DNA from: Nannocystis bainbridge
Lineage (GTDB): Bacteria > Myxococcota_A > Polyangia > Nannocystales > Nannocystaceae
Length of the DNA: 64,000 nucleotides
Assembly (NCBI RefSeq): GCF_028368995.1
Contig: NZ_JAQNDL010000002.1
Location: 609,724 to 673,723 of the forward strand
Direction of reading: 5' to 3'
Position 1 is the stretch's first letter; every line of letters starts with the position of its first letter. The notes beneath the pieces are model-generated. The model ran no database searches, was not told where the DNA came from, and worked only from the letters and a program-made list of their open reading frames with translations. Both the position numbers and the translations under genes were made by a program. Below are positions 3,231 to 62,990 of this stretch, piece by piece.

Positions 3231-3399
3231 GGTGATTCTCCTGGGGGGTGACCCGTGGGTGCGGGTCGGATTGCGGGGGCAAGAGTCCTATTTGCGTCCT
3301 CGACCTGCAACACCTCGTGCGCCGACGATCTGCGCGGGATCATGCGCCAGGGCGCGTGAGCGCCCGTTGCGGGCGAGCGGCGACAGGTCCGGCCTGGAG

Positions 3400-3720
3400 A
3401 CAGAGATGTCTCTCGGGACATGTCGATGAAACGCGTTCCAGGGACAGGTGACCGGGCTCCGAGAAGGACGTGTCTCTCGGGACATGTCGAAGCATCACGG
3501 GTCTGGGACAGGTGACCGGGCCGGAGAACCATGTGTCTCTCGGGACAGGTCGAAGGCGCGCGCTCCGGGGCCGGGCGGCGCCGAGAGCGGCATGTCCTCG
3601 GGGACATGTCGATGGAGCGCGGTCCGGGGACAGGTGGCCGTCCGGAGCGGCGGGATGGCTCCCGGGACATGTCAAACGCGACATGCCCCGAGGGACAGGT
3701 CTAGCCGCGCTGACGCAGGG
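3400..3720. repeat. Tandem array of REP-like GGGACATGTC / GGGACAGGTG hairpin repeats with 63-66 bp higher-order unit (3 copies)
   Basis: Repeated blocks gtctctcgggacatgtcga[a/t]g ... gggacaggtgaccgggc[c/t]..gagaa ... gtg seen three times, plus further single copies up to 3710. Confidence 0.75.
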
Positions 3721-4621
3721 CACCGCGCAGCTTGACGAGGGTGTCGTCGAGGCGCGAGGCGGGCACGCTGACGCGCGTCGGCATGCCGCCGCCGAGGCCG
3801 AGCAGAGTGACGAAATCGAGGCCGCTCTCGAAGCCGGCGGCGATGTTGAGGGTCTGGCCGTCGATGACCACGGCGATGGTGGCGCGCTGCTGGCCGAGCA
3901 GCAGCAGCTCGGTCTTGTCGAACGGGCGCGGGTTCGCGGGCACGCGCACGAGCGCGACGCCGTCCTCGACGACGTAGGCGCGGGCGAGCGCGGCGGCCTC
4001 GGCGGCCATGGCGTCGAAGTCGGCGGCGGCGGCGGCGATCGCCTCCTGCTCGGCGCCGCGCGGGCGACCGGCGACCAGCCAGCGCACGATCTTGATCAGG
4101 AGGACGGTGTCCTCGTAGTGGGCGCGCAGGGCCTTGTCGACGAGGGCGCCGATCGGGCCGACTTCGCCGGTGCGGGTGTCGACGGCGCGGGCGTCGGCGT
4201 CGGCGCCGGGGTAGGGCTCGACGCCGCCGAGCAGCCACTTGGCGGCGGAGTAGAGGCCGTCGAGGTCGAAGTGGGCGACGATGGTGTCGACCGGACCTGT
4301 CTCCTGGACCATCTGCGGCGTGATGATCTCGGGGCAGGCGCCGTGCTCGGCCTTGGTGTGGAGCACGAAGCGAGCGTCACCGCGGAACTGCGCGTGGCGC
4401 TCGTGATCGTGGTGATCGACCCACCGGGCCAGGCGCGGGCCGAGGCCGTGGAGGAACTTGCCGGTGATCTTCTCGAAGCCGCTGCCGATGCCCTCGGCCG
4501 CAAAGGCGACGTCGAGCACGACGACGCGGCCGCGCAGGCTGGCCGGCTTCGGCAGCCGCCGCGGGCTGGCGAACACCAGGTCGATCGCGGCGGCGTGGGC
4601 GAGGTCGGGCGTGGCCTTCAA
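3701..4621 (-). CDS. Hypothetical protein (contains VDHHDHERH motif; possible DHH-like phosphoesterase, uncertain)
   Basis: 306-aa ORF with balanced composition. 4-nt overlap with the downstream TPR gene suggests an operon. Confidence 0.4.
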   Translation of the reverse strand: MKATPDLAHAAAIDLVFASPRRLPKPASLRGRVVVLDVAFAAEGIGSGFEKITGKFLHGLGPRLARWVDHHDHERHAQFRGDARFVLHTKAEHGACPEIITPQMVQETGPVDTIVAHFDLDGLYSAAKWLLGGVEPYPGADADARAVDTRTGEVGPIGALVDKALRAHYEDTVLLIKIVRWLVAGRPRGAEQEAIAAAAADFDAMAAEAAALARAYVVEDGVALVRVPANPRPFDKTELLLLGQQRATIAVVIDGQTLNIAAGFESGLDFVTLLGLGGGMPTRVSVPASRLDDTLVKLRGALRQRG

Positions 4622-5587: not shown

Positions 5588-8494
<2,907 letters not shown>

Positions 8495-8625
8495 GCGGCG
8501 GGATGTCTTCGAGGGCATGTCCCGATGGACATGTCTTGGAGAGAATGTCCTCGGGGACATGTCGATGTGAGCATGTCATTCGGGACATGTTCTTGAGGGC
8601 GTGATACGCAGCACGGCCGTGGTTT
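8495..8625. repeat. REP-like CATGTCC/GGACATG repeat cluster
   Basis: gggatgtcttcgagggcatgtcccgatggacatgtcttggagagaatgtcctcggggacatgtcgatgtgagcatgtcattcgggacatgttc. Confidence 0.65.
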
Positions 8626-8646: not shown

Positions 8647-9504
8647 ATGCCTGAAGACAGGGTGGCGATGCGAGTGAGGGATTGTCCCAGGCGGCGCGGA
8701 CGCGGAGCGGTGGTGGCCCTGGCGCTGCTGGGTTGCCCGGCGGGCGAGGTCGCGGAGCTCGAGGGGGAGGAGCCGGCCTGCGCGCGGCCGGGCGGGCGCG
8801 GGTTCGCATTCTCGGGGGCGCCCGAGACGTTCGTGGTGCCCGAGTGCGTGACGAGGCTGACGGTCGAGCTGTGGGGCGCGCAGGGCGGGCCGAGCCGCTG
8901 CGGGACCGACGAGGGGTCTGCTCTGCCGGACCTGCAGATGGACGGCGGACGCGGCGGCTGGCTGCGCGCCGAGGTGCCGGTCCGCCCGGGCGAGGTGGTG
9001 CTGGTGCGCGTGGGCGGGCGCGGCGGCCTCGACGGCGCGCCGGGCTGGAACGGCGGCGGGCGCGGGGGCCGGTGGGCCGGCGGGGGCGGCGGTGGATCGG
9101 ACTTCCGGATCGGCGGGGCGAGCTTGATCGATCGCGCGCTGGTGGCCGGCGGCGGAGGCGGCGGTTCGTGCGGCTTTCCGGACCACGGGGCGGGCGGCGC
9201 CGGCGGCGGGCTGGTGGGCGAGGACGGGACTGTCGGCGAGGCGCCCTGGATCGCGGGCGGTGGCGGCCGACAGCTCGCGGGCGGCGAGGCAGGTTCAGCG
9301 CCGGGGCAGGCGGGGGTGTTCGGGCTCGGCGGCGGGGCAGCCCGCTACCACGTGGCCGGCGGCGGGGGCGGCTGGTACGGGGGTGGCGGGGCGTACGGGG
9401 CGGGCGGCGGCGGCGGTTCGTCGCACGCGAGCGGGGAGGCGAGCGCGGTGGAGAGCGAGGCGGGGGCGCGCGGCGGAGACGGGGCGGCGCAGATCTACTG
9501 GTGA
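8647..9504 (+). CDS. Glycine-rich secreted protein/lipoprotein (Gly_rich-like family); start possibly ATG at 8671
   Basis: Signal peptide with LLGC lipobox, an ordered N-terminal region (FVVPECVTRLTVELWGAQGG), then GGGGG-rich repeats. Composition differs from antisense artefacts (Tyr/Trp/Phe present). Confidence 0.45.
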   Translation: MPEDRVAMRVRDCPRRRGRGAVVALALLGCPAGEVAELEGEEPACARPGGRGFAFSGAPETFVVPECVTRLTVELWGAQGGPSRCGTDEGSALPDLQMDGGRGGWLRAEVPVRPGEVVLVRVGGRGGLDGAPGWNGGGRGGRWAGGGGGGSDFRIGGASLIDRALVAGGGGGGSCGFPDHGAGGAGGGLVGEDGTVGEAPWIAGGGGRQLAGGEAGSAPGQAGVFGLGGGAARYHVAGGGGGWYGGGGAYGAGGGGGSSHASGEASAVESEAGARGGDGAAQIYW

Positions 9505-9524: not shown

Positions 9525-9725
9525 TCGAGGCGTGGGGGCGATGGAGATGTCCGAGAGGACATGTCGAGATCGGCGAGCGCATCGGGTCATCGCGGTGGAT
9601 GATGGTGTCTTTGGGGACATGTCCATGGGGACATGTTTCGAGCGGGTGGGTCGGGGCGCGTCGCCGAGGATGTGTTTCGGACATGTCTCGAAGGACATGA
9701 CAAAAGCTCGCGGGTGACGGGGGAC
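9525..9725. repeat. REP-like CATGTCC/GGACATG repeat cluster
   Basis: gagatgtccgagaggacatgtcgag ... ggggacatgtccatggggacatgtttcgag ... gtttcggacatgtctcgaaggacatgac. Confidence 0.65.
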
Positions 9726-14944: not shown

Positions 14945-14984
14945 AGAGATGGCCCGAAGGACAGGTCGAGGGCGCGGACGCGGC

Positions 14985-15115
14985 GGGGAGTCCGGAGCTC
15001 GCCGTAAGAGCGGGGCATGTCCTCGTGGGCATGTCCTCGCGGGCATGCCTTGAAGGACATGTCTTCATAGACATGCCGAAACGGGCATGTCCCCGGGGAC
15101 ATGCTCAGCGGCGCA
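14985..15115. repeat. REP-like repeat cluster (GCATGTCC-TCGY-GGGCATG iterated about 6x with a ~14-bp period)
   Basis: ggggcatgtcctcgtgggcatgtcctcgcgggcatgccttgaaggacatgtcttcatagacatgccgaaacgggcatgtccccggggacatgctc. Confidence 0.7.
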
Positions 15116-18385: not shown

Positions 18386-19726
18386 TTGAAGGTGCGAGAC
18401 GGGCGGCGGTGCCTGGCCGCCAGGATGCCGACGTGGTACGGAAGAGCGGTGCAGATCCGCGACATCGAGCTCACGAACTTCCGCGGCTTCGAGACGCTCA
18501 AGTGTGAGCTCAACCCCGAGTGCACACTGTTCGTGGGGATCAACGGATCTGGCAAGACCAGTGTACTTGATGCGATCGCGGCGCTGCTATCGATGTGGAT
18601 GCGTGCTGTGGCCGGTCGATTGGATGGGGGGAGGCTCGAGCCCGACGACCGGCGGCTAGTCCGGCGGATCATCAAGGGGGTCCCGAGCCTTGAGGTTGCG
18701 GGGCCCGTGGTCGTCCATGGAACCATCTCTGGAAGAGAGGGTGAATCGCACCTTGAACGCGTGTCGTTGGACGGCACAGATTTTGTAAACAGTTCCCTCC
18801 TGTCGGAAGGGTATCGCACTGTCGAATCGGTCAGTGCAGGAGCGCAGGAAGAACTGCCGCTCTTCGCTTACTACTGCACCGGTAGACTGTGGCAAACGAG
18901 CGATGTGCAGGGAAACCTGAGGTTGCAAAGCGTGTTCGATGGCTACCGTGATTGTCTGCGCGCGGCTGTTAACCATCAGCTTCTTCAGAGCTGGATGTCG
19001 TGGCGGGAATCCGTCCGCCTGCAGGAGATCGGTCTCGCCGTGGAAAGCGGCCAGGAAATCAGGTCGGTACGAGAACCGCTGCTCGAGGTAGTTGCAAACG
19101 CAGTTACCGATTGTGTGGAAGGGGCAAAGCGGTTCTACTATTCCGTAAACCACGAGGAGCTTCGGGTCGACTTCAAGGACGGGCGAACGCTGCCCTTCCG
19201 CATGTTGTCGGACGGGTACCGCAACTTGCTGGCGCTCGTCGGCGACATCGCCTGGCGCGCCGCGCGGCTCAATCCTCATCACGGGGTAGATGCGGCCAAG
19301 GAGACCGCAGGCGTGGTGCTGATCGACGAGCTCGATCTTCACCTGCACCCGAGCTGGCAGCGGAGCGTGCTGCCGAACTTGCGGCGGGTCTTCCCGAAGA
19401 TCCAGTTCATCGCCACGACCCACTCGCCGCAAGTGCTGTCCACGGCCGAGCCGGCGTGGATCCGCGTGCTCCATCCGGACGGCAGCGTGGGCACCGTCGA
19501 GCATACGCACGGACGTGACTCCAACAGCCTGCTCGAGGACGTGTTTGGCGTCCCCGAGCGGCCCGTCGAGACGCGCGACGACATCCGGCGGCTGTTCGAC
19601 CTCATCGATCGCGGCGCGTTCGACGAGGCCGAAGCGTTGCGGGAGAAGTTGCAGGAGGACCTCGGTCCGGACGACCCTGACATCGTGCGGGCTCGAACCG
19701 CGATCGATCTCGAGAGGAATCTATGA
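18386..19726 (+). CDS. AAA/ABC-type ATPase, PtuA-like (Septu-type defence ATPase); true start possibly ATG 18425
   Basis: RecF/SMC-like Walker A (FVGINGSGKTSVLDAI), Walker B/D-loop (VVLIDELDLHLHP), H-loop (IATTHSP). GC content about 55-62%, well below flanks. Confidence 0.65.
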   Translation: MKVRDGRRCLAARMPTWYGRAVQIRDIELTNFRGFETLKCELNPECTLFVGINGSGKTSVLDAIAALLSMWMRAVAGRLDGGRLEPDDRRLVRRIIKGVPSLEVAGPVVVHGTISGREGESHLERVSLDGTDFVNSSLLSEGYRTVESVSAGAQEELPLFAYYCTGRLWQTSDVQGNLRLQSVFDGYRDCLRAAVNHQLLQSWMSWRESVRLQEIGLAVESGQEIRSVREPLLEVVANAVTDCVEGAKRFYYSVNHEELRVDFKDGRTLPFRMLSDGYRNLLALVGDIAWRAARLNPHHGVDAAKETAGVVLIDELDLHLHPSWQRSVLPNLRRVFPKIQFIATTHSPQVLSTAEPAWIRVLHPDGSVGTVEHTHGRDSNSLLEDVFGVPERPVETRDDIRRLFDLIDRGAFDEAEALREKLQEDLGPDDPDIVRARTAIDLERNL

Positions 19727-20349
19727 TCTCGGCCCCAAAGGGGAGCGCGCCGTCCTGTCTCACCACGCTGGCCGCCACGCCGGGGGCCGACTGGGACAGC
19801 GTGTACGGCGACCAGAAGCAATCGATGCGGGATGCGCTCGTGCGTGACCAGGGGTCGCTCTGCGCGTACTGTCAGCGGCGAGTGAAGGCGACCGAGGCCG
19901 ACATGCGCATCGATCACTGGCACCCGCGCGAGCGCGGCGGAGGTGTGTTCCAGTGGAACAACCTCGTCGGCTCGTGCGCCGATCGTGTGACCTGCGACGC
20001 GGCGAAGCAGGAGACCCGGCTGTTCCTTCATCCTGCGCGCGGGCTGGGGCCCGATCCGCGGCAGTTCCTGCGCTACACCGGCTCGGGCGAGGTGGTCGCC
20101 GACGACGAGCGGGCGCGTGCCGACACGCGTACGCTCGGTCTCAACGACGATCGCCTGGTCCGGGCCCGGCGGGCGGTGCTGGACGCCCTCCGCGGATGGA
20201 TCGCGCGGCGCGAGCGGTCAACGGCAGAGCTCCAGCGACAGATCGTGCTCCTGGAGTCGCCTGCAGGCGAGGCCCCGGAGTATGCGGCGACTCGTGCCTA
20301 CTATTTCCGCAAATGGTCGAGGGCGCGGGGAGCAGCCGTGGAGCGGTGA
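19723..20349 (+). CDS. HNH endonuclease, PtuB-like partner of the ATPase
   Basis: CAYCQRR ... DHWHPRERGGG ... WNNLVGSC = Cys-rich HNH/His-Me finger. ATGA overlap with upstream ATPase. Confidence 0.6.
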   Translation: MISAPKGSAPSCLTTLAATPGADWDSVYGDQKQSMRDALVRDQGSLCAYCQRRVKATEADMRIDHWHPRERGGGVFQWNNLVGSCADRVTCDAAKQETRLFLHPARGLGPDPRQFLRYTGSGEVVADDERARADTRTLGLNDDRLVRARRAVLDALRGWIARRERSTAELQRQIVLLESPAGEAPEYAATRAYYFRKWSRARGAAVER

Positions 20350-24666: not shown

Positions 24667-24780
24667 CGAAAATGTCTCATTGGACATGTTTGTTTGAACA
24701 TGTCCTTATGCGTCTGTCGTCGAATCGTCGAGGACATGTTCATAAGAACATGTCCGATTGAACATGCGTCAGGGCGGGCG
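24660..24780. repeat. REP-like repeat cluster (AT-richer variant)
   Basis: tcattggacatgtttgtttgaacatgtccttatg ... gaggacatgttcataagaacatgtccgattgaacatgcg. Confidence 0.6.
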
Positions 24781-24789
24781 CTCCGGGGC

Positions 24790-26249: not shown

Positions 26250-26350
26250 AGAATGACCTCAAGGACATGTCCTGAAGGGAATGTCCGTGGTCGCTCGCTC
26301 GCTCGCTCGCGGTCATGAACGCTCGGGACATGTTCGAGAGGACATGTCCC
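26250..26350. repeat. REP-like repeat cluster
   Basis: aaggacatgtcctgaagggaatgtccgtgg ... gggacatgttcgagaggacatgtcccgtg. Confidence 0.6.
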
Positions 26351-28894: not shown

Positions 28895-28945
28895 GCACAG
28901 CCATCAATGGCTTTTTGGACATGTCGACGAGGACATGTCCCGGAG
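28895..28945. repeat. REP-like repeat pair
   Basis: tttttggacatgtcgacgaggacatgtcccggaggtc. Confidence 0.55.
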
Positions 28946-44107: not shown

Positions 44108-44518
44108 ATGTCCGACCGAGAGGTGACCAAGACCGACGCGGAGTGGCAAGCGACGCTGACCCCGGAGCAGTACCGGGTGCTGCGCCAGGCGGGGACCGAG
44201 CGCGCGTTCACGGGCGCGTACTGGGACGAGAAGGCGCCGGGCAAGTACCGCTGCGCCGGCTGCGGGGCGCTGCTGTTCGACGCGACCACCAAGTTCGACT
44301 CGGGCTGCGGCTGGCCGAGCTTCTTCGACGCGGTCGACCGCGAGGCGATCGAGGAGCGGGCCGACACCAGCCACGGGATGCGCCGCGTCGAGGTCGTGTG
44401 TCGCCGCTGCGGCGGTCACCTGGGGCACGTGTTCCCCGATGGTCCGCAGCCGACACGTCTGCGTTATTGCATCAACTCGCTCAGCCTCGAGTTCGATCGC
44501 CAGGACGGATCGAAGTAG
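44108..44518 (+). CDS. msrB: Peptide-methionine (R)-S-oxide reductase
   Basis: Canonical MsrB: two CxxC zinc motifs ([17 protein letters not shown]) and RYCINS active-site Cys. Confidence 0.9.
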
Positions 44519-44529
44519 ACGATCCCGGC

Positions 44530-45123
44530 TCAGTCGCTCAGCCAGTGGCTGCGAAAGCGCGCGCCGTCCCAGTAGAGGAGCGCGCTCGAGGACTCGAGCT
44601 TCATCATGACGATGCCGTCGCCCTGGAGCGCGGGCGGCTTGCCGCCGGGCCCGCCGGGCACGGAGGTGCCGCGGTCGTGGACGTACCAGGCGTCGCGCGC
44701 GGGCAGGGTGAGGCCGGCCTTGGCGTCGTCGTCGAGCCAGACGGCCGGGCGCCCGCCGCCGCGCAGCACGACCAGCCGCGGCAGCGCGCCGGCGCCGAGC
44801 TTGGGCACGACGCTGACGAGGTAGTCGGGCGCGGCGTCGCCGTCGAAATCGCCGCGCAAGTAGAAGGGGTTGATGCCGCGATCGATGGCGTGCTCGGCCC
44901 AGATCTTGGCGGCGGCGCCCCGCTCGAGCAGCTCGGGCGGGGTGTTGGCGTCGCCGAGGCGATCGGCGAGGGCGGCGTCGTCCTGGGCCGGCGGCGGCGG
45001 CGGTAAGGGCGTTGCGGCAGGCGGCTCGGCCTTCGCGGGCGCGGGCGCGGGCGTCGCCGCGGGCGCGGAGCAGGCGAAGGCGGACAGGCCGAGGGTGACG
45101 AGGAGGTCGATGCGGACGCTCAT
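44530..45123 (-). CDS. Secreted protein/lipoprotein, hypothetical
   Basis: Signal peptide MSVRIDLLVTLGLSAFAC, Pro/Ala linker. The upstream part of ORF 44530..45648 is repeat DNA (not coding). Confidence 0.45.
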   Translation of the reverse strand: MSVRIDLLVTLGLSAFACSAPAATPAPAPAKAEPPAATPLPPPPPAQDDAALADRLGDANTPPELLERGAAAKIWAEHAIDRGINPFYLRGDFDGDAAPDYLVSVVPKLGAGALPRLVVLRGGGRPAVWLDDDAKAGLTLPARDAWYVHDRGTSVPGGPGGKPPALQGDGIVMMKLESSSALLYWDGARFRSHWLSD

Positions 45124-45334
45124 GGGAGGGTGCGGAGCGGGGCGACAACGGCGAGGGCCGGCGGCGCATTCCGTCGCGCGACGGGATAGCACGCACGCCG
45201 GCGGCGCCCAGCCCCGAGGGCGGCCGCGGGGGCGCAGGCGGGCCGGCGAGGCGCGCGCCCGGAGCCGCGCGGATGGCGGCGGGCGGGCTCGGCCGGGCTG
45301 GCGTGGGGCGATCGCCGAGGGTGATGCATGGGCC

Positions 45335-45660
45335 ATGGCGGGAGGGACATGGGCTTTGGGACATGTCGGTCGGGCCAGAGGCGGGATGTCAGGGGGGACA
45401 TGTTGGACCTGGTGAAGCGGGCGCGTCATGCTCCGGCACGAGGCATGTGGCGCGAGAGACATGTCCCGATCCACATGCTCGATTCGACATGTCCTGATCG
45501 ACATTCCTGAATGGACATGTTGGGCCTGGTGGAGCGTGCGCGGCCATGCGCTGTTACGAGCCATGCAGCGCGAGAGATGTCCCGATTGACATGCTCTATT
45601 CGACATGTCTGGATCGACATGTCTCGATAGACATGTCTCCGCGGACATGTCCCGCGGCGC
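45335..45660. repeat. Large REP-like repeat array (about 20 CATG-core units)
   Basis: gggacatgggctttgggacatgtcggtcgggc ... gggggacatgttggacctgg ... gagacatgtcccgatccacatgctcgattcgacatgtcctgatcgacattcctgaatggacatgttggg ... gacatgctctattcgacatgtctggatcgacatgtctcgatagacatgtctccgcggacatgtcccgcgg. Confidence 0.75.
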
Positions 45661-45667
45661 GACGGCC

Positions 45668-46642
45668 TCAGCGCGGGCGCGAGATGCCGGGGCCGGGGTC
45701 GGGGCCGATCGGGGCGGGCTTGGGCGAAGGGTCGGGCGGGGGCGGTTCGGGAGGGGCCTGCGGGGTCGTGGCGGCGGTGCCGAGCTCGGTCTCGGCGCTG
45801 ACGTCCTCCGGCAGCACGGGCGCGTCGTAGGGGCGGAAGCGGGTCTTGCCGGCGCGGCCGGCGTTGAGGCGCTCCAGCTCCGCGTCGGTGAACGCCTGCG
45901 GGGTGCCGTACGGCGCGACCTGGCGGACGAAGGCCTCGATCTTGGCGCGGGCGGTGCGGGCGACCTCGAGGCGCATGCGATCGACCTCGGTGCGGCGGTT
46001 GGTGGTCGGGTCCTCGCACTCCTCCCAGCGCTCGAAGATCCGCCGCTTGCGCTCGGCGAGCGGCAGCTTGGCGTCGCGCCACACCTCGGTGAGCTGGCCG
46101 CCGAGGTCGGCGAGCTCGCTGCGCAGGCGCTGCCGGTACCAGGCGTTGGCGAGGTGGAAGCGCAGCTGCTCGGTGGCGATCATGAACGCCTGCTTGGCGC
46201 TCTTGTGGCGGTTCTTGCGGCGGCCGTCGGCGAGGCCGCCGAAGCGGGCGCCGAAGCCGGCGAGGATCGGGGCGGCGCCGAACGGGGCGGCGCGGCGCGG
46301 GTACACGGCCTCGTCGATCACGCCCATGAACCACGGCGGGTGACGCTCGGGCTCGGGCTCGCGGAGGCGACGGCGCCACAGGTCGAGGCCGAGGAAGTTG
46401 ATGTCGGCGGTGCCGCCGTGGTCGCGGAACTCGACCGAACCGTCGGGGTAGATGACGGCGGTGAAGCCGTCGCCGCGGTGCTTGAGGCGGCCGGCGCTGT
46501 CGGGCTCGAGGTCGACGGAGGGCCGCGGGATGTCGGGCGGGAGCTTGGCCGGGGCGGCGTGCAGCGCGGGCGCGACGGCCAGGCCCAGCACGACCGCGCT
46601 CGCGCGCACGAGACGGGAGCTGAGCGAGGAGCGCGGGCGCAT
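45668..46642 (-). CDS. Secreted hypothetical protein
   Basis: Signal peptide (VVLGLAVAPALHAAPA), coherent 324-aa sequence with a Pro-rich C-terminus. Confidence 0.45.
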   Translation of the reverse strand: MRPRSSLSSRLVRASAVVLGLAVAPALHAAPAKLPPDIPRPSVDLEPDSAGRLKHRGDGFTAVIYPDGSVEFRDHGGTADINFLGLDLWRRRLREPEPERHPPWFMGVIDEAVYPRRAAPFGAAPILAGFGARFGGLADGRRKNRHKSAKQAFMIATEQLRFHLANAWYRQRLRSELADLGGQLTEVWRDAKLPLAERKRRIFERWEECEDPTTNRRTEVDRMRLEVARTARAKIEAFVRQVAPYGTPQAFTDAELERLNAGRAGKTRFRPYDAPVLPEDVSAETELGTAATTPQAPPEPPPPDPSPKPAPIGPDPGPGISRPR

Positions 46643-46796
46643 GGACGGGGTTCCGGCACAACCCGGCGGGCCGGACCGACATTTCCGGGCCGCGTGGGGC
46701 CTTCAGTTCATCGCTGAACGCGGTGGCTGTAAAGCGGCGCGGCGATCGCTGGCGACGCGGGCGGGGCTCGGCCGAGTTGCCGGGGTCGCGGCGAAA

Positions 46797-47909
46797 TCAG
46801 TCGCCCTGGCCGCGGCTGCGCGGGTCCCTGTAAAAGGCGCGCAGAGACCGGTGGTCGGCCTTGCGGGCGCGGTTTCGCGCGGCGGTCTCGCGGTCCTTGG
46901 CCAGCGAGGCGAGCTCGGCGACCAGCTTGCGGTAGCTGTCGAGGCGCTCGGGCTCGATCGTGCCGGCGGCGGCGGCGGCGACCACGGCGCAGCCGGGCTC
47001 GTGGGCGTGGGTGCAGTCGCGGAAGCGGCAGTTCTCGGCGACCGCGGCGATGTCGGCGAAGGCCTCGGGCACGCTCTCGTCGGCGTTCCACAGCCCGAGC
47101 TCGCGCATGCCGGGGGTGTCGATGACGAGGCCGCCGCGTGGCAACACCAGCAGCTCGCGGTGGGTGGTGGTGTGGCGGCCCTTGCCGTCGTCGCGCAGCT
47201 CGCCGGTGAGGAGCCGCTCCTCGCCGAGCCAGCGGTTGATGAGCGTGCTCTTGCCGACGCCCGAGGCGCCGATCAGGGCGGTGGTCTGCGGGCGGGCGAT
47301 GTAGGCGTCGAGCTCGTCGAGGCCCTGGCCGCTGACGCTCGAGAGGACGTGGATCGGGACCGGGCGCTCGCCAGCGACGCGGGCGAGCAGCGGGCGGATG
47401 GCTGAAAGCACAGGTTCGGCGGTCTCGACCAGATCGGCCTTCGTCAGGGCGAGCACGGGGGCGGCGCCGCTGGCGAGGGTGATGGCGAGGTAGCGCTCGA
47501 GCCGGCGCAGGTTGGGGGCCTGGTCGAGCGGGTGGACGATGAAGACGCTGTCGACGTCGGCGGCGACGATCTGCGGGGCGGCGGCGCCACGGCCGGCGGC
47601 GCGGCGGGTGAGCACGGTCTTGCGCGGCAGGACGGTGTGGATGGTGGCGGTGCCGAGCGCGGCGTGGATGTCGAGCGCGACCCAGTCGCCGACAGCCGGC
47701 TTCTGCATGGCGTCCTTGGCCGCGGCCTTGCGCAGCCTGCCGGCCAGCTCGCCGCGAAACTCGCCGGCGGCGGCGAGCACGACGTAGCCGCCGCGGTGCT
47801 CGGCGGCGACGCGACCGGGCAGGTTGCCGTCGCCGCGGTGGGCCGCCCAGGCGCCGGCGGCGTGCTCGTCCCAGCCGAGTCGCGCCAGCGGGTCGGGGGC
47901 GTCGCTCAT
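46797..47909 (-). CDS. rsgA: Ribosome small-subunit-dependent GTPase A
   Basis: Circularly permuted GTPase motifs (..LTKADLV.., ALIGASGVGKSTLINRWLG, DTPGMRELG) and C-terminal zinc knuckle CRFRDCTHAHEPGC. Confidence 0.85.
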   Translation of the reverse strand: MSDAPDPLARLGWDEHAAGAWAAHRGDGNLPGRVAAEHRGGYVVLAAAGEFRGELAGRLRKAAAKDAMQKPAVGDWVALDIHAALGTATIHTVLPRKTVLTRRAAGRGAAAPQIVAADVDSVFIVHPLDQAPNLRRLERYLAITLASGAAPVLALTKADLVETAEPVLSAIRPLLARVAGERPVPIHVLSSVSGQGLDELDAYIARPQTTALIGASGVGKSTLINRWLGEERLLTGELRDDGKGRHTTTHRELLVLPRGGLVIDTPGMRELGLWNADESVPEAFADIAAVAENCRFRDCTHAHEPGCAVVAAAAAGTIEPERLDSYRKLVAELASLAKDRETAARNRARKADHRSLRAFYRDPRSRGQGD

Positions 47910-50206: not shown

Positions 50207-53200
50207 ATGTCGACGCCGCCCGACACGCCGCCCGACACGAAGGCCGCCCGCGGTGCAGGTGCGGGCACGTGGGCCGACGTCGACGTCCATCGTCTCCATG
50301 CGCGCGTGATGGGCCGGCTGTTCGGCGAGCCGGCCGCGCCCACCATGATCGGCAGGTTCCATGTCGAGCGCCGGCTGGGGTCGGGGGCCATGGGCGTCGT
50401 CTATGCGGCCGTCGACGCCCAGCTCAATCGCCGGGTCGCCATCAAGCTGCTGCACCCGCACCTGCAGGGCGACGAGCAAGGCCGCGCTCGACTGCTGCGC
50501 GAGGCCCGGGCGATGGCCCGCCTCGAGCACGATCACGTGGTGCGGATCTACGAGGTCGGCGCGTGGGGCGACCAGATCTACATCGCCATGGAGCTGATCG
50601 AGGGGGTGACCCTCGACGCGTGGCTGCGCGAGCGCCCGCGGGCCTGGCAGGCGGTGCTGACGGTGTACCTGCAAGCGGGGCGGGCGCTGGCGGCGGCCCA
50701 CCACGCGGGGCTGCTGCACCGCGACTTCAAGCCCGAGAACGTGCTCGTCGACCACCGCGACCGCGCCCGCGTCCTCGACTTCGGGCTGACGTGCGCGCTC
50801 GATGCCGGCGAGGCGCTCGACGACGAGCTGATGCCGCTGACCCGCACCGGCAGCATCCTCGGCACGCCGGCGTACATGGCCCCCGAGCAGCAGCGCACCG
50901 GCAACGCGGAGCCGCGCTCCGACCAATTCAGCTTCTGCGTGGCGCTGTTCGAAGGTTTGTTCGGTCTGCGGCCGTTCGGCTCGGTTCCGCGCTTCGGTCA
51001 GGTCGAGATCGCGCCCATTCCGCGGGAAAGTCGCGTCCCTTTGCGCATCCGCCGCGCGATCTTTCGCGGCCTGTCCGAAAAGCCAGATGCGCGCTGGCCG
51101 GGCATGGACGACCTGCTGGCGGCCTTGCAGGCGCCGCGCCGGTTCGTCGGCGGGCCCGAGGACGGGCGGGCGCGGCCGTGGCTGCTGGCGGGCGGAGTGA
51201 CGCTCGCGGCCGCGGGGCTGGTGGCGCTCGGCGTGTCGCTGGCGCAGCCGGAGACGGGCGATGCGGTGGCGGAGGGGCCAGAGCCGGGGCCGCTCGCGAG
51301 CGCGCCCGACGAGGCGCAGGCCGACGCGCTGGCGACCGAGCGCGCGGCCGCCGAACGCCAGGCCCACGCGCTGCGGGTCCGCGACGCCGCGCTGTCGCTG
51401 CTGCCCCGCGATCCGACGACGGCGGCGCTGCTGCTGCGCGAGCTCGACGATCCCGGAGCGCTGGCCCAGCGGGTGCTGGCGGAGCCGATCAGCGCGGCGA
51501 TCCTGCGCGGCCACGACGGGCCGGTGGTGGCGGTGCGCTGGATCGAGGCTGTCCCGGGGGACAGGGGCGCGGTGCCGGGGGCGGCGAGCGAGGCTGTCCC
51601 GAGGGACAGGTCGCATGGCGCGCCGGCAGGGTCCGCGAGCGCGGCGGTGCTGGCGAGCGGTTCTGTCCGTGCGGGCAGCGGCGGGGCTGTCCTCCGGGAC
51701 AGGTCGGGCGGCGAGGCGGCGCTCCTTGGGAGCGGGTCGATGCCGCACGACATGGCTGTCCTCGGGGACAGGTCACGAGTGAGCGGTACGGCTGGCCTTT
51801 CGGACAGTTCACGCGCGCGTGAGCCGATCGAAAAGACTGTCCTTCGGGACATGTCGCGAGCGAGCGGAGCGGCGGTGCTGGCGAGCGGCGTCGGCTCACC
51901 TGTCCCGGGGGACAGTTTGGCGTCGCCTGTCCCGCAGGACAGCTCGAGAACACCGCCGGCGGAGCTGCGCGGCGCGGTCGAGACCGTCGACGCCTCCGGG
52001 CACGTGCGTCGGTTCGCGATCGCCGGCGGGCCGCCGACCCCCGGCGCGGGCAGCTTCGGCGCCGACCCGCGCCGCGGCCCTGCGGGCGAGGAGCTGCGGG
52101 TCGACGCTCGCGGCGGCGTGTCGCTGGTCGCCGGCGAGCGCGTGACGGCCCTGCGCGGCGTCGTCGGCCCGCTCGCGGCGGTCGCCTGGAGCCCCGACGG
52201 CCAGGAAATCGCCGCGGCCGGCCCGCGCGGCGAAGTGTGGCGGATCGCCGGGGGGCGCCCGATCGCCGTCGGCGAGCGCGGCGCGGCCGTCGGCGCGCTG
52301 GCGTGGGACCGCGGCGGGCGGCACCTCGCGATCGGCCGCGACGACGGCGGGGTCGAGGTGTGGCGTATCGACGGCGCGGCGCGGCGGATAGCGGCGGTGG
52401 TCGGCGACGGCGGCGTCACCGGCCTGGCTCTCGGGACAGGTTGGTTCGCCAGCGGCAGCGACGACGGCAGCGCGCGGGTGTGGCGGATCGGCGGGGTCGG
52501 GCGGCCCTTCGTGCTGCGTGGTCACACCGGGCCGGTTCGGGCGCTGGCGTTCGCGCCCGGCGGTGTCCGCCTGATCACCGGCAGCGACGACGGCAGCGCG
52601 CGGGTGTGGCGGCTCAGCCCGGCGGCGGTGCGCGAGCACGACCTCGGCGCGGTCGTGCACGCGCTCGCCTGGAGCCCCGACGGCACCGCGCTGGCGGCCG
52701 CCGGGGCGCGCAGCGTGTGGCTGCTGCCGACCGACGGCGGGCCGGTGCGCCGGCGCGACCACGCCGGCACCGCGCTGGCGCTGGCCTGGCGCGGCGACGG
52801 TCAGGAGCTGGCGGTCGCCGACGACGGCGGCGCGATCACGTGGATCCCCCGCGGCGAGGGCGAGCCGCGGCGGGCCAGCGTCGACCGCCGCCCGCTACCC
52901 GCGCTGGCCTGGGATCCTCGGTCCTCGCGCCTGGCCGCCGGCGGCAGCGACGGCGCGTTCTTCATCTGGCCTTCAGGACATGACTTCAAGGACATGGCCG
53001 ATCCGACCCGCGCGCCGCAGGGCCGCGGGGCCATCGCCGCGCTGGCCTGGTCGCCGGTCGACGATCGACTGGCGGCCGTCACCGCGTCCGGCTACGTGCT
53101 CGTGCGCACCGAGCAGACCGTGTTCATCGAGCTCGGCCAGCCGCTGCGCGGGCTGGCGTGGAGCCCCGCCGGCGACGCCCTGGCGATCGTCGGCGACAAT

Positions 53201-53623
53201 CGGGCGCTGGTGCGCATCGCCGCGGCCACTGGCGTGCGTACCGAGCTGGGGCGGGCCGCGGCGGCGCTGACGAGCGTCGCCTGGGACCCGCGCGATCGCT
53301 GGATCGTCGCCGGCGCGGCCGACGGCGGGCTGCTCCACTGGTCGCTGCAGAGCGAGGGCGGGCCCGAGCTGCTCGTGGGCCACGGCGGCGGCATTCATGC
53401 CCTGGCGTTCGACACCGCCGGTGACCGCTTCGCCTCGGCGGGCGGCGACGGCCGCGTCGTCGTCTGGCCGCGCCCGGGCGAGGGCCTGCGCGCGCGCATC
53501 GCCGACGCCACGCGCGCCTGCCTGCAGCCTGCGGATCGCCGGCGTCATCTCGGTGAATCGCAGGACATCGCCGACGCAGGAGCCGCGGCTTGCGAGCGAT
53601 CATTTGGTAATGTGGATTACTAA
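50207..53623 (+). CDS. Serine/threonine protein kinase with disordered repeat linker and C-terminal WD40 beta-propeller
   Basis: Hanks kinase subdomains (GSGAMGVVY, AIK, HRDFKPEN, DFG, APE), then a linker encoded by REP-like repeats (51545-51950), then WD40 repeats (GHDGPVVAVRW, GHTGPVRALAF ... GSDDGSARVWR). Confidence 0.8.
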   Translation: MSTPPDTPPDTKAARGAGAGTWADVDVHRLHARVMGRLFGEPAAPTMIGRFHVERRLGSGAMGVVYAAVDAQLNRRVAIKLLHPHLQGDEQGRARLLREARAMARLEHDHVVRIYEVGAWGDQIYIAMELIEGVTLDAWLRERPRAWQAVLTVYLQAGRALAAAHHAGLLHRDFKPENVLVDHRDRARVLDFGLTCALDAGEALDDELMPLTRTGSILGTPAYMAPEQQRTGNAEPRSDQFSFCVALFEGLFGLRPFGSVPRFGQVEIAPIPRESRVPLRIRRAIFRGLSEKPDARWPGMDDLLAALQAPRRFVGGPEDGRARPWLLAGGVTLAAAGLVALGVSLAQPETGDAVAEGPEPGPLASAPDEAQADALATERAAAERQAHALRVRDAALSLLPRDPTTAALLLRELDDPGALAQRVLAEPISAAILRGHDGPVVAVRWIEAVPGDRGAVPGAASEAVPRDRSHGAPAGSASAAVLASGSVRAGSGGAVLRDRSGGEAALLGSGSMPHDMAVLGDRSRVSGTAGLSDSSRAREPIEKTVLRDMSRASGAAVLASGVGSPVPGDSLASPVPQDSSRTPPAELRGAVETVDASGHVRRFAIAGGPPTPGAGSFGADPRRGPAGEELRVDARGGVSLVAGERVTALRGVVGPLAAVAWSPDGQEIAAAGPRGEVWRIAGGRPIAVGERGAAVGALAWDRGGRHLAIGRDDGGVEVWRIDGAARRIAAVVGDGGVTGLALGTGWFASGSDDGSARVWRIGGVGRPFVLRGHTGPVRALAFAPGGVRLITGSDDGSARVWRLSPAAVREHDLGAVVHALAWSPDGTALAAAGARSVWLLPTDGGPVRRRDHAGTALALAWRGDGQELAVADDGGAITWIPRGEGEPRRASVDRRPLPALAWDPRSSRLAAGGSDGAFFIWPSGHDFKDMADPTRAPQGRGAIAALAWSPVDDRLAAVTASGYVLVRTEQTVFIELGQPLRGLAWSPAGDALAIVGDNRALVRIAAATGVRTELGRAAAALTSVAWDPRDRWIVAGAADGGLLHWSLQSEGGPELLVGHGGGIHALAFDTAGDRFASAGGDGRVVVWPRPGEGLRARIADATRACLQPADRRRHLGESQDIADAGAAACERSFGNVDY

Positions 53624-53944
53624 ATGATCGAATGAGGCTCACCGCGAGCCGCAATGCGCATAGGCGATCGCATGGCGGCCCGCGGCCCCCAGGTCCGGCC
53701 TCGACCGGGGCAGCCGCGCGCGGTCGGCGGCAAACCGCTGGTCATACATCTGTTACGACGCTTTCGAGAATTTTTTGTCGGTGACGGTGATCGATCGGGC
53801 GGGCCTCGTTACTCGAGGGACAGGTCGGGTCTCGCGGTCGTCGCGGTGATCCCGCCCATGCGCCACGGATGGTGCTCTGCCACGGAGGCTGTCTCTCAGG
53901 CCAGGATGGCCACATCTATTCCTCGCGGTCCGTCAGGCCGTCGC

Positions 53945-53964
53945 CAGCCTTGCATGTGCATGCA
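53945..53964. promoter_or_regulatory. 20-bp palindrome CCTTGCATG-TG-CATGCAAGG about 70 bp upstream of gene 54035 (operator candidate)
   Basis: Perfect 9-bp inverted arms with CATG cores in a 410-bp intergenic region that also carries an AT-rich patch (gaattttttgtcg). Confidence 0.35.
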
Positions 53965-54034
53965 AGGCCGGCCTGTTGGACAGCATCGTCGCCGCGCGTC
54001 GCGCTTCGCGGCCGCGGCCCTCTAAGGAGAGCAC

Positions 54035-55027
54035 ATGTCGACAGTACGATCGCAGGGGCGCCGTTCGCTCCTGAAGGTGGGGATCGCATTGTCCCTGGTG
54101 GTTCCGGCGCCCGCGTGGGCCGCCCAGCCTGGGGAATCCTCGAGCGGATGGAAGACTGAATCGGCCGCGTCGGCGGACGGCGACACCGTCGTCCTCGACG
54201 ACTCGCCCGAGCCGGCCAAGCGCAGCAAGAGCAGCGGCAAGAAGAAGGCCCCCAAGGCCCAGCCGCGCGAGGCGATGATCAAGGCTCAGGTCGAAAAGGC
54301 CGAAGCCGAGCGCGCGCCGCTGCAAGATCAGGCGCAGCAGCTGTCCGACGCCGGCAACCTCGAGGGGGCCGTCGGCCTGCTCGCGGGCGGCGCCGAGGCG
54401 CTGCGCGATCCGGTGCTGCACCTCGCGGCCGCCGACGCCCGGCAGAAGCTCGCGCGCAAGCGCAGCGCCGATCAGGCCAAGGCCGAGTGGGAGGCCAGCC
54501 TGCGCCACATCGACCGCGCCGACGCGCTGCTCGCCGCCAACAGCGGCGGGGCCGTCGACGGCCTGCGCGTCAACCCGGACGACCTCGAGACCATGCACGC
54601 GTGGAGCGTCGAGCTGCGCGGCGCCGCCGATGGCGCGCTGCCGGACCTCGTGCGGCGCACCAACCCGGTCCGTCGCAACGCCCGCGGCGAGCTGATCGCC
54701 GGCTCGATCTTCCTCGCCGGCGGCCTCGCGGCGCTCGGCGTCATGGGCGGCGGCATCTACCTCAGCAAGTCGGCCGACCGCGAGCTGCCCAAGGCCGATG
54801 GCAACCCCGAGTACCTCGCCCCGCTCGAGGCGCAGAAGAAGCAGGGCGACACCATGATCGCCGCGGGCGCGGTCGCGGGCGTCCTCGGCGTCGCGCTCGG
54901 CGTCACTCTGGTGGCGCTCGGCGCCACCGACTTCAAGAAGGCGCGCCAGGAGCAATTGGCGCGCCTCCGCGTCGCGCCCGCCGTCTCGCCGACGTTCGGC
55001 GGCCTGTTCCTGTCCGCTCGCTTCTGA
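54035..55027 (+). CDS. Secreted/membrane-anchored hypothetical protein
   Basis: Signal peptide (SLLKVGIALSLVVPAPAWAAQP), Lys-rich segment, C-terminal TM helices. Confidence 0.45.
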   Translation: MSTVRSQGRRSLLKVGIALSLVVPAPAWAAQPGESSSGWKTESAASADGDTVVLDDSPEPAKRSKSSGKKKAPKAQPREAMIKAQVEKAEAERAPLQDQAQQLSDAGNLEGAVGLLAGGAEALRDPVLHLAAADARQKLARKRSADQAKAEWEASLRHIDRADALLAANSGGAVDGLRVNPDDLETMHAWSVELRGAADGALPDLVRRTNPVRRNARGELIAGSIFLAGGLAALGVMGGGIYLSKSADRELPKADGNPEYLAPLEAQKKQGDTMIAAGAVAGVLGVALGVTLVALGATDFKKARQEQLARLRVAPAVSPTFGGLFLSARF

Positions 55028-60852: not shown

Positions 60853-60894
60853 CCGGCCCGCGCCGCGCCGCTCCGCGCGGTCACCGACCGCGGC

Positions 60895-61010
60895 GATCTA
60901 TCGATCGTCGTCTTGGAGACATGTACCGAAGGTCATGCCCCAAAGGTCATGCCTGTATGGACATGCTCGATCGAGCATGCCTCGTCGACCATGTCGTCTC
61001 AGCCGAGCTC
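60895..61010. repeat. REP-like repeat cluster (CATG/CCATG variant)
   Basis: ggagacatgtaccgaaggtcatgccccaaaggtcatgcctgtatggacatgctcgatcgagcatgcctcgtcgaccatgtcgtc. Confidence 0.55.
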
Positions 61011-62924: not shown

Positions 62925-62990
62925 GACAGGACGCGAGGGACATTCTCACGAGATGTCCCTTCAGACATGTCCCCAAGAACACCCGCTCAG
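62925..62990. repeat. REP-like repeat cluster
   Basis: gagggacattctcacgagatgtcccttcagacatgtccccaag. Confidence 0.55.

What the first reader, a model, noticed from the sequence alone, without database searches (positions are those of the whole stretch)
45335..45660. Largest repeat array (~20 CATG-core units) in the leader region of a lipoprotein gene
A 325-bp stretch is almost entirely composed of GACATGTC / GGACATG units. It lies between the stop of gene 45668..46642 and the start of gene 44530..45123, both on the minus strand. Its composition is GC-poorer than the flanks (many ATTCGACATG units). The six-frame ORF 44530..45648 runs through it and is an artefact. A leader made of about 20 potential hairpins is likely to control read-through or translation of the downstream lipoprotein gene. 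It could alternatively be a hotspot for repeat expansion.
Basis: seen in the sequence. Interest (0 to 1): 0.55.

Follow-up and report, generated by a model that had tools for sequence, protein, structure and literature searches.

The report
Gene-end palindromic repeat array in Nannocystis
The repeat array is real, but it is one locally expanded copy of a repeat family found across the genus Nannocystis, built from the 8-bp palindrome GACATGTC every 14 bp and placed just after the stop codons of genes, so it marks the end of the upstream gene and is not a special leader for the downstream lipoprotein gene.

Summary
Window 45335-45660 holds 15-17 units (not ~20) of the palindrome (G)GACATGTC(C) on a strict 14-bp period, plus a 116-bp tandem duplication. 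It is GC-poor and non-coding.

The array is not unique. The same units fill at least 12 other intergenic gaps in this Nannocystis bainbridge window and occur in every Nannocystis genome examined.

Units are strongly biased to gene 3' ends. Densities are 12-14 per kb in convergent gaps, 4-8 per kb in tandem gaps, about 0 in divergent (promoter) gaps and 0.4 per kb in coding DNA. In tandem gaps the first unit lies a median of 24 bp after the upstream stop codon.

In six Nannocystis genomes the orthologous gap always carries units, but the arrays do not align between species. A separate block next to the downstream start codon is conserved.

Spacers resemble each other within an array but are random between arrays. 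Cores change less than spacers. There is no strand asymmetry of the kind expected for RNA-level selection.

Best reading: a REP/BIME-like (or mycobacterial TRIT-like) gene-end element, recognised in a sequence-specific way and grown here by local duplication. Two neighbouring units form the canonical PadR operator, ATGT-N8-ACAT. The leader hypothesis is not supported. The "expansion hotspot" alternative is supported.

The parts
45335..45660 (.). The whole array: 15-17 units of (G)GACATGTC(C) at a 14-bp period, GC 0.61, non-coding
45574..45651 (.). Run of six units in one 14-bp register. Units at 45574 (GAGATGTC) and 45588 (GACATGCT) are degenerate. Units at 45602, 45616, 45630 and 45644 are exact. 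The run ends 16 bp from the stop codon of 45668..46642(-).
   Evidence: TRF rows 45577-45639 and 45630-45657
45458..45521 (.). Run of five units in one register (45458, 45472, 45486, 45500, 45514), alternating strong and degenerate units (28-bp super-period)
   Evidence: TRF 45458-45520, periods 14 and 28
45396..45628 (.). Tandem duplication of a 116-bp module: one unit, about 52 bp of non-unit palindromic filler, then four units. 1.9 copies, 82% identity.
   Evidence: TRF score 313; pairwise alignment
45346..45404 (.). Two degenerate unit pairs (45346/45360 and 45383/45397) at the end of the array nearest the promoter
45143..45194 (-). Conserved block (GCGTGCTATCCCG..GCGCGACGGAATGC..GCCGTTGTCG) upstream of the ATG at 45123. 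Probably the downstream gene's own promoter or 5' UTR. It is separate from the array.
   Evidence: four-species DNA alignment; also aligns in N. exedens and N. pusilla CP185339
45668..46642 (-). Upstream gene: 324-aa hypothetical protein found only in Nannocystis, no Pfam domain. The array sits at its 3' end.
   Evidence: 100% identical to N. bainbridge WP_272087753.1
44530..45123 (-). Downstream gene: 197-aa putative lipoprotein (signal peptide ending ...LSAFAC), no Pfam domain. The true start is the ATG at 45123.
3382..3701 (.). Sister array of the same family (11 units with <=1 mismatch, 64-bp higher-order repeat), abutting the stop of 3701..4621(-)
14945..15104 (.). Sister array filling a convergent gap. 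Other convergent gaps with arrays: 2689-2870, 24667-24789, 60853-60998.
8503..8591 (.). Sister array 9 bp after the stop of 5588..8494(+). Further arrays lie at 9544-9701, 26251-26348, 28918-28939, 34877-34925, 38140-38435 and 62950-62971.

Best explanation
The array is a locally expanded member of a repeat family found across Nannocystaceae. The unit is the 8-10-bp perfect palindrome (G)GACATGTC(C), repeated every 14 bp with a variable 4-6-nt spacer.

**Shown**
- The family sits at the 3' ends of transcription units, directly after stop codons and throughout convergent gaps. It is absent from divergent promoter gaps and is at background level in coding DNA.
- Arrays persist in the same gaps across species but turn over internally.
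- Arrays grow by local tandem duplication of 14-, 28- and 64-190-bp segments.
- The palindromic core is kept while the spacers drift.

**Inferred**
- The core and its phase are maintained because a sequence-specific factor recognises them, most likely a dimeric DNA-binding protein. Each pair of neighbouring units spells ATGT-N8-ACAT, the canonical PadR-type operator.
- A pair can also extrude a hairpin or cruciform with an 8-10-bp stem.
- The arrays act as boundary elements at gene ends, in the way proposed for E. coli REP/BIME and mycobacterial TRIT. Possible roles are a bidirectional termination or roadblock, or a handling site for supercoiling.

On this reading the array at 45335-45660 belongs to the 3' flank of gene 45668..46642. 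Its large size reflects a recent expansion specific to N. bainbridge, not a dedicated leader for the lipoprotein gene.
For: **Family and periodicity**
- 91 matches against 19 +/- 4 expected. 25 of the gaps between consecutive hits are exactly 14 bp and 7 are 28 bp.
- There are arrays in at least 12 other gaps of the window.

**Location**
- Over 27 Nannocystaceae sequences: convergent gaps 13.9 units per kb (21 of 32 gaps have >=2 units), tandem 4.3, divergent 0.22 (0 of 26 gaps), coding 0.39.
- In tandem gaps the first unit lies a median 24 bp after the upstream stop. The last unit lies a median 163 bp before the next start.
- In sequences not selected for arrays: 12.0, 7.7, 0 and 0.46 units per kb.
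- Some arrays touch or overlap the stop codon, or are the only content of a convergent gap of about 45 bp.

**Taxonomy**
- A triple-unit pattern with 24 specified bases occurs in only 41 stretches among 185,579 species. 23 of them are in Nannocystaceae.

**Orthologous gaps**
- Units are present in all six genomes, but the arrays are not alignable. The promoter-proximal block is conserved.
- A second gap (TPR/HTTM) behaves the same way, while four other gaps lack units in all species.

**Local growth and core constraint**
- Spacers share 3.1 of 6 positions within arrays and 1.75 of 6 between arrays (p = 7e-13).
- In orthologous arrays of close strains, core changes are 1 of 48 and spacer changes 5 of 24 (p = 0.014).

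**DNA level rather than RNA level**
- On the sense strand there are 28 G.U against 24 A.C mismatches (p = 0.68).
- Covariation between neighbouring units is weak.

**Protein-site geometry**
- The canonical PadR motif is ATGT-N8-ACAT (PMC3506622, PMC5428041).
- The identical triple-unit array lies between a PadR-family gene and an RPE65-family gene in five actinobacterial loci.

**Hairpin potential**
- Unit pairs fold at -8 to -16 kcal/mol. The whole array has z = -4.6.
Against: - No binding protein was identified. No PadR-like ORF lies near any array in the window or the Nannocystaceae loci screened, though the local HMM used was narrow.
- There are no transcript data, so termination or insulation is inferred from position alone.
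- Gene-end location is also what purifying selection against insertions in promoters and genes would leave behind.
- The core-versus-spacer substitution test rests on only 72 aligned bases.
- One locus (L018) has a canonical hairpin-plus-T-run terminator in front of the array. Arrays are therefore not always the only terminator-like structure.
- For the closest analogue, TRIT, Term-seq found little overlap with real 3' ends (bioRxiv 10.1101/2022.06.01.494293).
- Most loci in the large location statistic were selected for carrying a perfect triple unit. The unselected subset gives the same picture.
Confidence: 0.55

Rival explanations
1. RNA-level element. Neighbouring units pair in the transcript of the upstream gene to give stable hairpins. 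These act as U-tract-less intrinsic terminators or as 3'-end stabilisers against exonucleases, and work in both directions in convergent gaps.
For: - Arrays lie immediately after stop codons and in convergent gaps.
- Unit pairs fold at -8 to -16 kcal/mol. The array has z = -4.6.
- There are a few compensatory pairs, for example GACATGTT..AACATGTC and GACATGCC..GGCATGTC, with z = 3-4 at the two outer stem positions.
- REPs are thought to act this way (PMC3733652).
Against: - There is no G.U-over-A.C excess on the sense strand (28 against 24).
- There is no T-run: 0 terminator-like sites, and the flank test was confounded by degenerate units.
- A hairpin alone would not require the same stem sequence at every locus.
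- The spacers show no extended pairing.
Confidence: 0.2
2. Selfish or neutral repeat DNA. The units spread or arise by slippage, gene conversion or an unidentified transposase (REP/RAYT-like). They are simply tolerated only in 3' intergenic DNA and have no host function.
For: - Copy number and arrangement differ between species, and the expansion here is lineage-specific.
- There is clear local tandem duplication.
- REP families show the same distribution and are thought to be mobile (PMC3733652, PMC2817692).
Against: - Spacers between arrays are at random-level identity (1.75 of 6), so multi-unit copies are not being pasted around.
- Cores change less than spacers in orthologous arrays.
- There is no GTAG or CGTC tag and there are no conserved ends.
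- Arrays hug the stop codon and are not spread evenly over the 3' part of gaps.
Confidence: 0.17
3. One reading: a hairpin-rich leader or attenuator that specifically controls translation of, or read-through into, the downstream lipoprotein gene 44530..45123.
For: - The array lies upstream of that gene on the same strand and folds strongly.
- Any gene-end element would incidentally reduce read-through.
Against: - The same arrays occupy convergent gaps with no downstream gene and are absent from divergent promoter gaps.
- The array is 16 bp from the upstream stop and about 210 bp from the downstream start. A conserved promoter-proximal block lies in that interval.
- The array is not conserved in sequence or size among orthologous loci, whereas the gene and its proximal upstream block are.
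- No Rfam family matches.
Confidence: 0.05
4. Ordinary operator sites of a PadR-family repressor that regulates the flanking genes.
For: - The geometry is exactly ATGT-N8-ACAT (PMC5428041, PMC3506622).
- The same triple array is the likely operator next to PadR genes in Actinomycetota.
Against: - The location is wrong for an operator: gene ends, convergent gaps, none in divergent promoter gaps.
- There are far too many sites, in at least 13 gaps per 64 kb.
- No PadR-like ORF lies nearby.
Confidence: 0.03

Closest known systems
REP / BIME elements (repetitive extragenic palindromes of Enterobacteria, Pseudomonas, Stenotrophomonas; PMC3733652, PMC2817692)
   Same: - High-copy, lineage-specific extragenic palindromes, clustered in regularly spaced arrays.
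- Located downstream of ORFs in unidirectional and convergent gaps, and rare between divergent genes.
- Copy number varies between related genomes.
- Proposed roles in termination, mRNA stability and supercoiling.
   Different: - The unit is a perfect 8-10-bp palindrome, not a 20-40-bp imperfect one.
- The period is a strict 14 bp, with spacers that are unrelated between loci.
- There is no GTAG or CGTC tag.
- No RAYT transposase link could be examined.
TRIT, the 'Tuberculosis Rho-independent terminator' motif of Mycobacterium (PMC3152330)
   Same: - A genus-restricted palindromic motif conserved in sequence as well as structure.
- Tightly associated with stop codons and bidirectional.
- Its authors also inferred an extra factor recognising the sequence.
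   Different: - TRIT is a single, longer stem-loop present in about 147 copies, centred about 8 nt before the stop.
- Here there are short units in tandem arrays of 2-17, far more copies, and a median start 24 bp after the stop.
- No sequence similarity was tested.
PadR-family operators (ATGT-N8-ACAT; PMC3506622, PMC5428041)
   Same: - Two neighbouring units reproduce the canonical inverted repeat and spacing exactly.
- Identical triple arrays lie next to PadR genes in Mycobacterium, Rhizohabitans and another Actinomycetota genome.
   Different: - Operators sit in promoters, as 1-3 sites per regulon member.
- These arrays sit at gene ends, in hundreds to thousands of copies by extrapolation, with no PadR gene nearby.
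Paired DNA uptake sequences in Neisseria terminators, and HIP1 of cyanobacteria (from general knowledge)
   Same: A short, abundant, lineage-specific motif that often forms inverted pairs behind genes.
   Different: DUS, USS and HIP1 are also enriched inside genes. GACATGTC is at background level in coding DNA (0.39-0.46 per kb, against about 0.30 per kb in shuffles).

Membership tests
REP/BIME | High-copy palindromic repeat dispersed in extragenic DNA | tested here: met
   91 matches against 19 +/- 4 expected. Arrays lie in at least 13 gaps of 64 kb and in all Nannocystis loci examined.
REP/BIME | Unit of 20-40 bp forming an imperfect stem-loop on its own | tested here: inconclusive
   A single unit is an 8-10-bp perfect palindrome and cannot fold alone. 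Two units (22-24 bp) fold at -8 to -16 kcal/mol.
REP/BIME | GTAG or CGTC tetranucleotide tag at one end (PMC3733652) | tested here: not met
   The position weight matrix of 59 units shows no conserved flank beyond G at -1 and C at +9.
REP/BIME | Preferential location downstream of ORFs, in unidirectional and convergent gaps | tested here: met
   Convergent 12-14 units per kb, tandem 4-8, divergent 0-0.2. Median 24 bp after the stop.
REP/BIME | Cognate RAYT (Y1 transposase) gene flanked by the repeats | not testable with these tools
   No whole Nannocystis genome could be scanned.
TRIT-like conserved terminator motif | Genus-restricted, sequence-conserved palindrome tied to gene termini and bidirectional | tested here: met
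   23 of 41 triple-unit stretches are in Nannocystaceae. Gene-end bias is shown. The unit is palindromic.
TRIT-like conserved terminator motif | Coincides with mapped transcript 3' ends | not testable with these tools
   No transcriptome data were available.
Canonical intrinsic (Rho-independent) terminator | GC-rich hairpin followed by a T/U run | tested here: not met
   Hairpins are present. There were 0 terminator-like sites in 44400-46800 and no T-run after the arrays.
PadR-type operator | Inverted repeat ATGT-N8-ACAT | tested here: met
   GACATGTC-N6-GACATGTC contains ATGT-(C N6 G)-ACAT. Motif taken from PMC3506622 and PMC5428041.
PadR-type operator | Lies in the promoter of the regulated gene, usually next to the PadR gene | tested here: not met
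   0 of 26 divergent gaps carry arrays. No PadR-like ORF was found in the window or the Nannocystaceae loci. By contrast, five actinobacterial loci do meet this feature.
PadR-type operator | Bound by a PadR-family protein | not testable with these tools
   Needs EMSA, ChIP or pull-down. A homologue search returned only mycobacterial proteins.
Known RNA families (Rfam 15) | Match to a curated covariance model | tested here: not met
   0 hits at gathering score in the window. 0 hits at E <= 1 in 45000-45800.
DNA uptake sequence / HIP1-type iterated motif | Over-representation inside coding DNA as well | tested here: not met
   Coding density is 0.39-0.46 per kb, against about 0.30 per kb in shuffles.

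The most novel reading that the evidence does not exclude
Nannocystis may mark the 3' boundaries of most transcription units with phased arrays of binding sites for one sequence-specific dimeric DNA-binding protein, possibly a PadR-family wHTH protein recruited from ordinary repressor duty. These sites would act as protein roadblocks, bidirectional terminators or topological insulators. This would be a genome-wide, protein-dependent gene-end code, with thousands of sites per 12-13-Mb genome by extrapolation from this window.
Probability: 0.15. Interest if true: 0.75.

Novelty: new variant of a known kind. Interest (0 to 1): 0.4.

Why it matters
Myxobacteria with 11-13-Mb, >70% GC genomes lack obvious canonical terminators, and how their transcription units are delimited is poorly known.

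This family is a genus-specific motif that sits just after stop codons in many gaps between same-direction genes and fills most convergent gaps. Its core is kept while its spacers drift. It therefore gives a concrete, testable handle on gene-end definition in this group: Term-seq, or a pull-down with a GACATGTC x3 probe.

It is also a clean natural example of arrays that grow by local duplication, which makes them useful as strain markers.

The exact match to PadR operator geometry suggests a candidate class for the recognising factor.

For the specific finding, the practical message is that the lipoprotein gene has no special leader. Annotation pipelines should not extend its ORF through the array.

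Tried and rejected
- **Rfam.** A whole-window search at gathering score and a search of 45000-45800 at E <= 1 gave no hits.
- **Consensus promoter/terminator scan** of 44400-46800 found nothing.
- **Exact look-up of the flanking protein** failed. The source species was identified later through cluster members. A look-up of P0156 also failed.
- **Literature searches** for REP plus myxobacteria, Nannocystis plus palindromic plus intergenic, and GACATGTC plus bacteria found nothing relevant.
- **PadR link in Nannocystis.** A local HMM built from five actinobacterial PadRs found no ORF in the window or any Nannocystaceae or Rhodobacteraceae locus. A database search with the L012 PadR listed only close mycobacterial relatives. 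Both are uninformative, not negative.
- **Rhodobacteraceae triple arrays.** Their neighbours are unrelated housekeeping genes (enolase, amidohydrolase, ABC transporter and others), with no shared regulator.
- **Covariation between neighbouring units** was only weak, confined to the outer two positions and partly inflated by duplicated modules.
- **T-run test after the last unit** was confounded by degenerate flanking units.
- **Rejected readings.** Coding sequence (GC3, orthologue starts), CRISPR (6-nt spacers), MITE (no conserved ends), plasmid iterons or centromere (dispersed chromosomal location), uptake sequence or HIP1 (no coding enrichment).

Full report
**Source and setting**

The window comes from Nannocystis bainbridge (Myxococcota, Nannocystaceae). 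The protein encoded at 45668..46642(-) is 100% identical to WP_272087753.1 of that species. The species description is PMC10435759. The DNA is about 73% GC.

The finding lies in the 544-bp gap between two minus-strand genes. The upstream gene is 45668..46642, encoding a 324-aa protein found only in Nannocystis with no Pfam domain. The downstream gene is 44530..45123, encoding a 197-aa putative lipoprotein, also with no Pfam domain.

**The observation**

The repeat is real.
- In 45335-45660 there are 16 CATG (49 per kb, against 3.8 per kb in the window).
- There are 7 exact GACATGTC, 10 copies with <=1 mismatch and 15 with <=2 mismatches.
- GC is 0.61.
- Units sit in strict 14-bp registers. One run of six lies at 45574-45651, whose last four units are perfect. 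One run of five lies at 45458-45521.
- Tandem Repeats Finder also reports a 116-bp higher-order repeat (45396-45620, 1.9 copies, 82% identity). An alignment of the two copies confirms it.

"Almost entirely composed" is overstated, because the 8-mers cover 37% of the bases.

The long ORF 44530..45648 is an artefact. Its extension has GC3 of 0.56-0.68 against 0.96 in the gene. The ATG at 45123 and the N-terminus are conserved in four species.

**It is one of many**

GACATGTC with <=1 mismatch occurs 91 times in the window, against 19 +/- 4 in shuffles. Of the distances between consecutive hits, 25 are exactly 14 bp and 7 are 28 bp.

Clusters lie in at least 12 other intergenic gaps:
- 2760-2825
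- 3382-3701
- 8503-8591
- 9544-9701
- 14960-15104
- 24670-24775
- 26251-26348
- 28918-28939
- 34877-34925
- 38140-38435
- 60917-60995
- 62950-62971

The unit consensus from 59 phased copies is G-GACATGTC-C followed by four variable bases. No Rfam family matches.

**Where the arrays sit**

I called genes by GC3 in the window and 26 Nannocystaceae loci and counted units per kb.

| Region | 27 sequences | Unselected: window + three syntenic loci |
|---|---|---|
| Convergent gaps | 13.9 (21 of 32 gaps with >=2 units) | 12.0 |
| Tandem gaps | 4.3 | 7.7 |
| Divergent gaps | 0.22 (0 of 26 gaps) | 0 |
| Coding DNA | 0.39 | 0.46 |

- In tandem gaps the first unit lies a median 24 bp after the upstream stop. 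The last unit lies a median 163 bp before the downstream start.
- In the window, four of the five convergent gaps longer than 20 bp carry two or more units with <=1 mismatch. The fifth (60853-60998) carries a degenerate array. None of the four divergent gaps carries any.
- In other species, arrays touch or overlap the stop codon. Some are the sole content of a 45-bp convergent gap, as in the orthologous loci L006 and L040.
- The focal array fits the pattern. It ends 16 bp from the stop of 45668..46642 and about 210 bp from the start of the lipoprotein gene.

**Comparison across species**

I recovered syntenic loci for Nannocystis sp. RBIL2, N. punicea, N. pusilla (two assemblies) and N. exedens.

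- The orthologous gap is 392-927 bp long and always holds units of this family. The number, arrangement and filler sequences differ, and the arrays cannot be aligned.
- The four perfect units and the 116-bp duplication are specific to N. bainbridge. N. exedens, whose flanking protein is 91% identical, has only 6 units with <=1 mismatch there.
- In contrast, a block at about 45143-45194 next to the start codon is conserved in all of them. This is the likely promoter or 5' UTR of the lipoprotein gene, and it is separate from the array.
- A second gap (TPR/HTTM genes, window 38082-38532) behaves the same way. Four other gaps lack units in all species.
- Arrays are therefore long-term residents of particular gene ends, with fast internal turnover.

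**How arrays grow and what is constrained**

- Spacers within an array share 3.1 of 6 positions. Spacers from different arrays share 1.75 of 6, which is about random (p = 7e-13).
- Arrays therefore expand by local duplication of 14-, 28- or 64-190-bp segments. Multi-unit blocks are not copied between loci.
- The 8-bp core is nevertheless the same everywhere.
- In arrays that are orthologous between close strains, cores changed at 1 of 48 positions and spacers at 5 of 24 (Fisher p = 0.014). This points to constraint on the core sequence and on the 14-bp phase. The sample is small.

**RNA or DNA?**

- Neighbouring units can pair into hairpins with 8-10-bp stems, at -8 to -16 kcal/mol. The whole array folds better than shuffles, z = -4.6.
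- Covariation between neighbours is weak, with z = 3-4 only at the two outer stem positions.
- On the sense strand, G.U mismatches (28) are no commoner than A.C mismatches (24; p = 0.68).
- No T-run follows the arrays.
- A structural requirement alone would not fix one stem sequence genome-wide.
- This favours sequence-specific recognition, most simply at the DNA level.

**A lead on the recognising factor**

A scan of one genome for each of 185,579 species for three GACATGTC units at a 14-bp period (24 specified bases) found only 41 stretches.
- 23 are in Nannocystaceae: N. punicea, N. pusilla, N. exedens, N. radixulma, RBIL2 and three MAGs.
- 9 are in Rhodobacteraceae.
- 6 are in Actinomycetota.
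- 3 are singletons.

In five actinobacterial loci the triple unit lies in the divergent gap between a PadR-family regulator gene (PF03551 plus PF10400) and an RPE65-family oxygenase gene. The canonical PadR operator is ATGT-N8-ACAT (PMC3506622, PMC5428041). Two units 14 bp apart spell exactly ATGT-(C N6 G)-ACAT. The array geometry is therefore that of a genuine class of protein-binding sites.

In Nannocystis, however, the location is wrong for an operator, and no PadR-like ORF lies near any array (narrow HMM). A database search for Nannocystis homologues was uninformative. The link stays a lead.

**Comparison with known systems**

- **REP/BIME.** The distribution (downstream of ORFs, in unidirectional and convergent gaps, clustered and regularly spaced, copy number varying between relatives) is that of REP/BIME elements (PMC3733652, PMC2817692). 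The defining GTAG or CGTC tag is absent. The unit is much shorter than a REP. A RAYT transposase link could not be examined.
- **TRIT.** The mycobacterial TRIT motif (PMC3152330) is a close functional analogue. It is a genus-restricted palindrome conserved in sequence, tied to stop codons and bidirectional. Its authors also inferred an extra recognising factor. Later Term-seq found little overlap between TRITs and real 3' ends (bioRxiv 10.1101/2022.06.01.494293), which is a caution for the terminator reading here.
- **Others.** Canonical intrinsic terminators (no U-tract), uptake sequences or HIP1 (no enrichment in coding DNA), CRISPR, MITEs and iterons were considered and rejected.

**Verdict**

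The array is a lineage-specific expansion of a gene-end palindromic repeat family found across the genus. It belongs to the 3' flank of 45668..46642. The leader hypothesis is not supported.

The most likely mechanism is inferred, not shown. A sequence-specific factor recognises phased GACATGTC pairs at the ends of transcription units, with a boundary role in termination, roadblock or topology.

This is a new variant of a known kind of element. Interest is moderate, and higher if the protein-dependent gene-end code reading proves true.

Noticed in passing
window 18386-20349 (+): A low-GC island (0.58-0.68) carries a Septu-type defence pair: PtuA ATPase at 18386..19726 (E = 2e-117) and PtuB HNH at 19723..20349 (E = 4e-37). 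The island contains no GACATGTC units, which is consistent with recent acquisition.
   Followed up: yes
window 53624-54034 (+); L001:2494-2906, L002:2625-3039, L003:2849-3257: A 411-bp gap upstream of 54035..55027 is very highly conserved in four Nannocystis species, especially about 53790-53990. It has no repeat units and no Rfam hit, and it ends in an AAGGAGA ribosome-binding site. It contains the hairpin GGCCGGCCTTGCATG..CATGCAAGGCTGGC. It is a candidate long structured 5' leader or sRNA. Four sequences give too little covariation to judge.
   Followed up: partly
L005, L007, L023, L027 (Roseovarius MAG); L030, L035, L039 (Sulfitobacter DFL-14); L036 (Sulfitobacter EhC04); L032: Some Roseobacter-group genomes carry exactly three GACATGTC units at a 14-bp period, with A/T-rich spacers. 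They lie at several unlinked intergenic sites next to unrelated housekeeping genes, including upstream of enolase in two Sulfitobacter species. This looks like the regulon of an unidentified global regulator, or a second dispersed family.
   Followed up: partly
L008, L012, L013, L019, L041 (Mycobacterium, Mycolicibacterium, Rhizohabitans, an Actinomycetota MAG): A conserved divergent gene pair, a PadR-family regulator (PadR plus Vir_act_alpha_C) and an RPE65/carotenoid-oxygenase-family gene, is separated by a triple GACATGTC array. This is the probable operator of that PadR subfamily.
   Followed up: partly
L018:2390-2440: In a Nannocystis MAG, a canonical terminator (GC hairpin plus a T-run, AAAGAGGCGCCCCCGGGCGCCTCTTCTTTTTT) directly precedes a triple-unit array in a convergent gap. 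Arrays and ordinary terminators can therefore coexist.
   Followed up: no
window 8647-9504 (+): A glycine-rich secreted or lipoprotein gene (285 aa, long GGGG runs, GC about 0.79) was missed by simple GC2/GC3 gene calling. It is flanked on both sides by unit arrays that each follow a stop codon.
   Followed up: partly
window ~53000-55000: Cumulative GC skew rises steadily from 1 to about 53 kb and then falls to the end of the window. This is a strand-composition switch that could mark a replication landmark or just a change in gene orientation.
   Followed up: no
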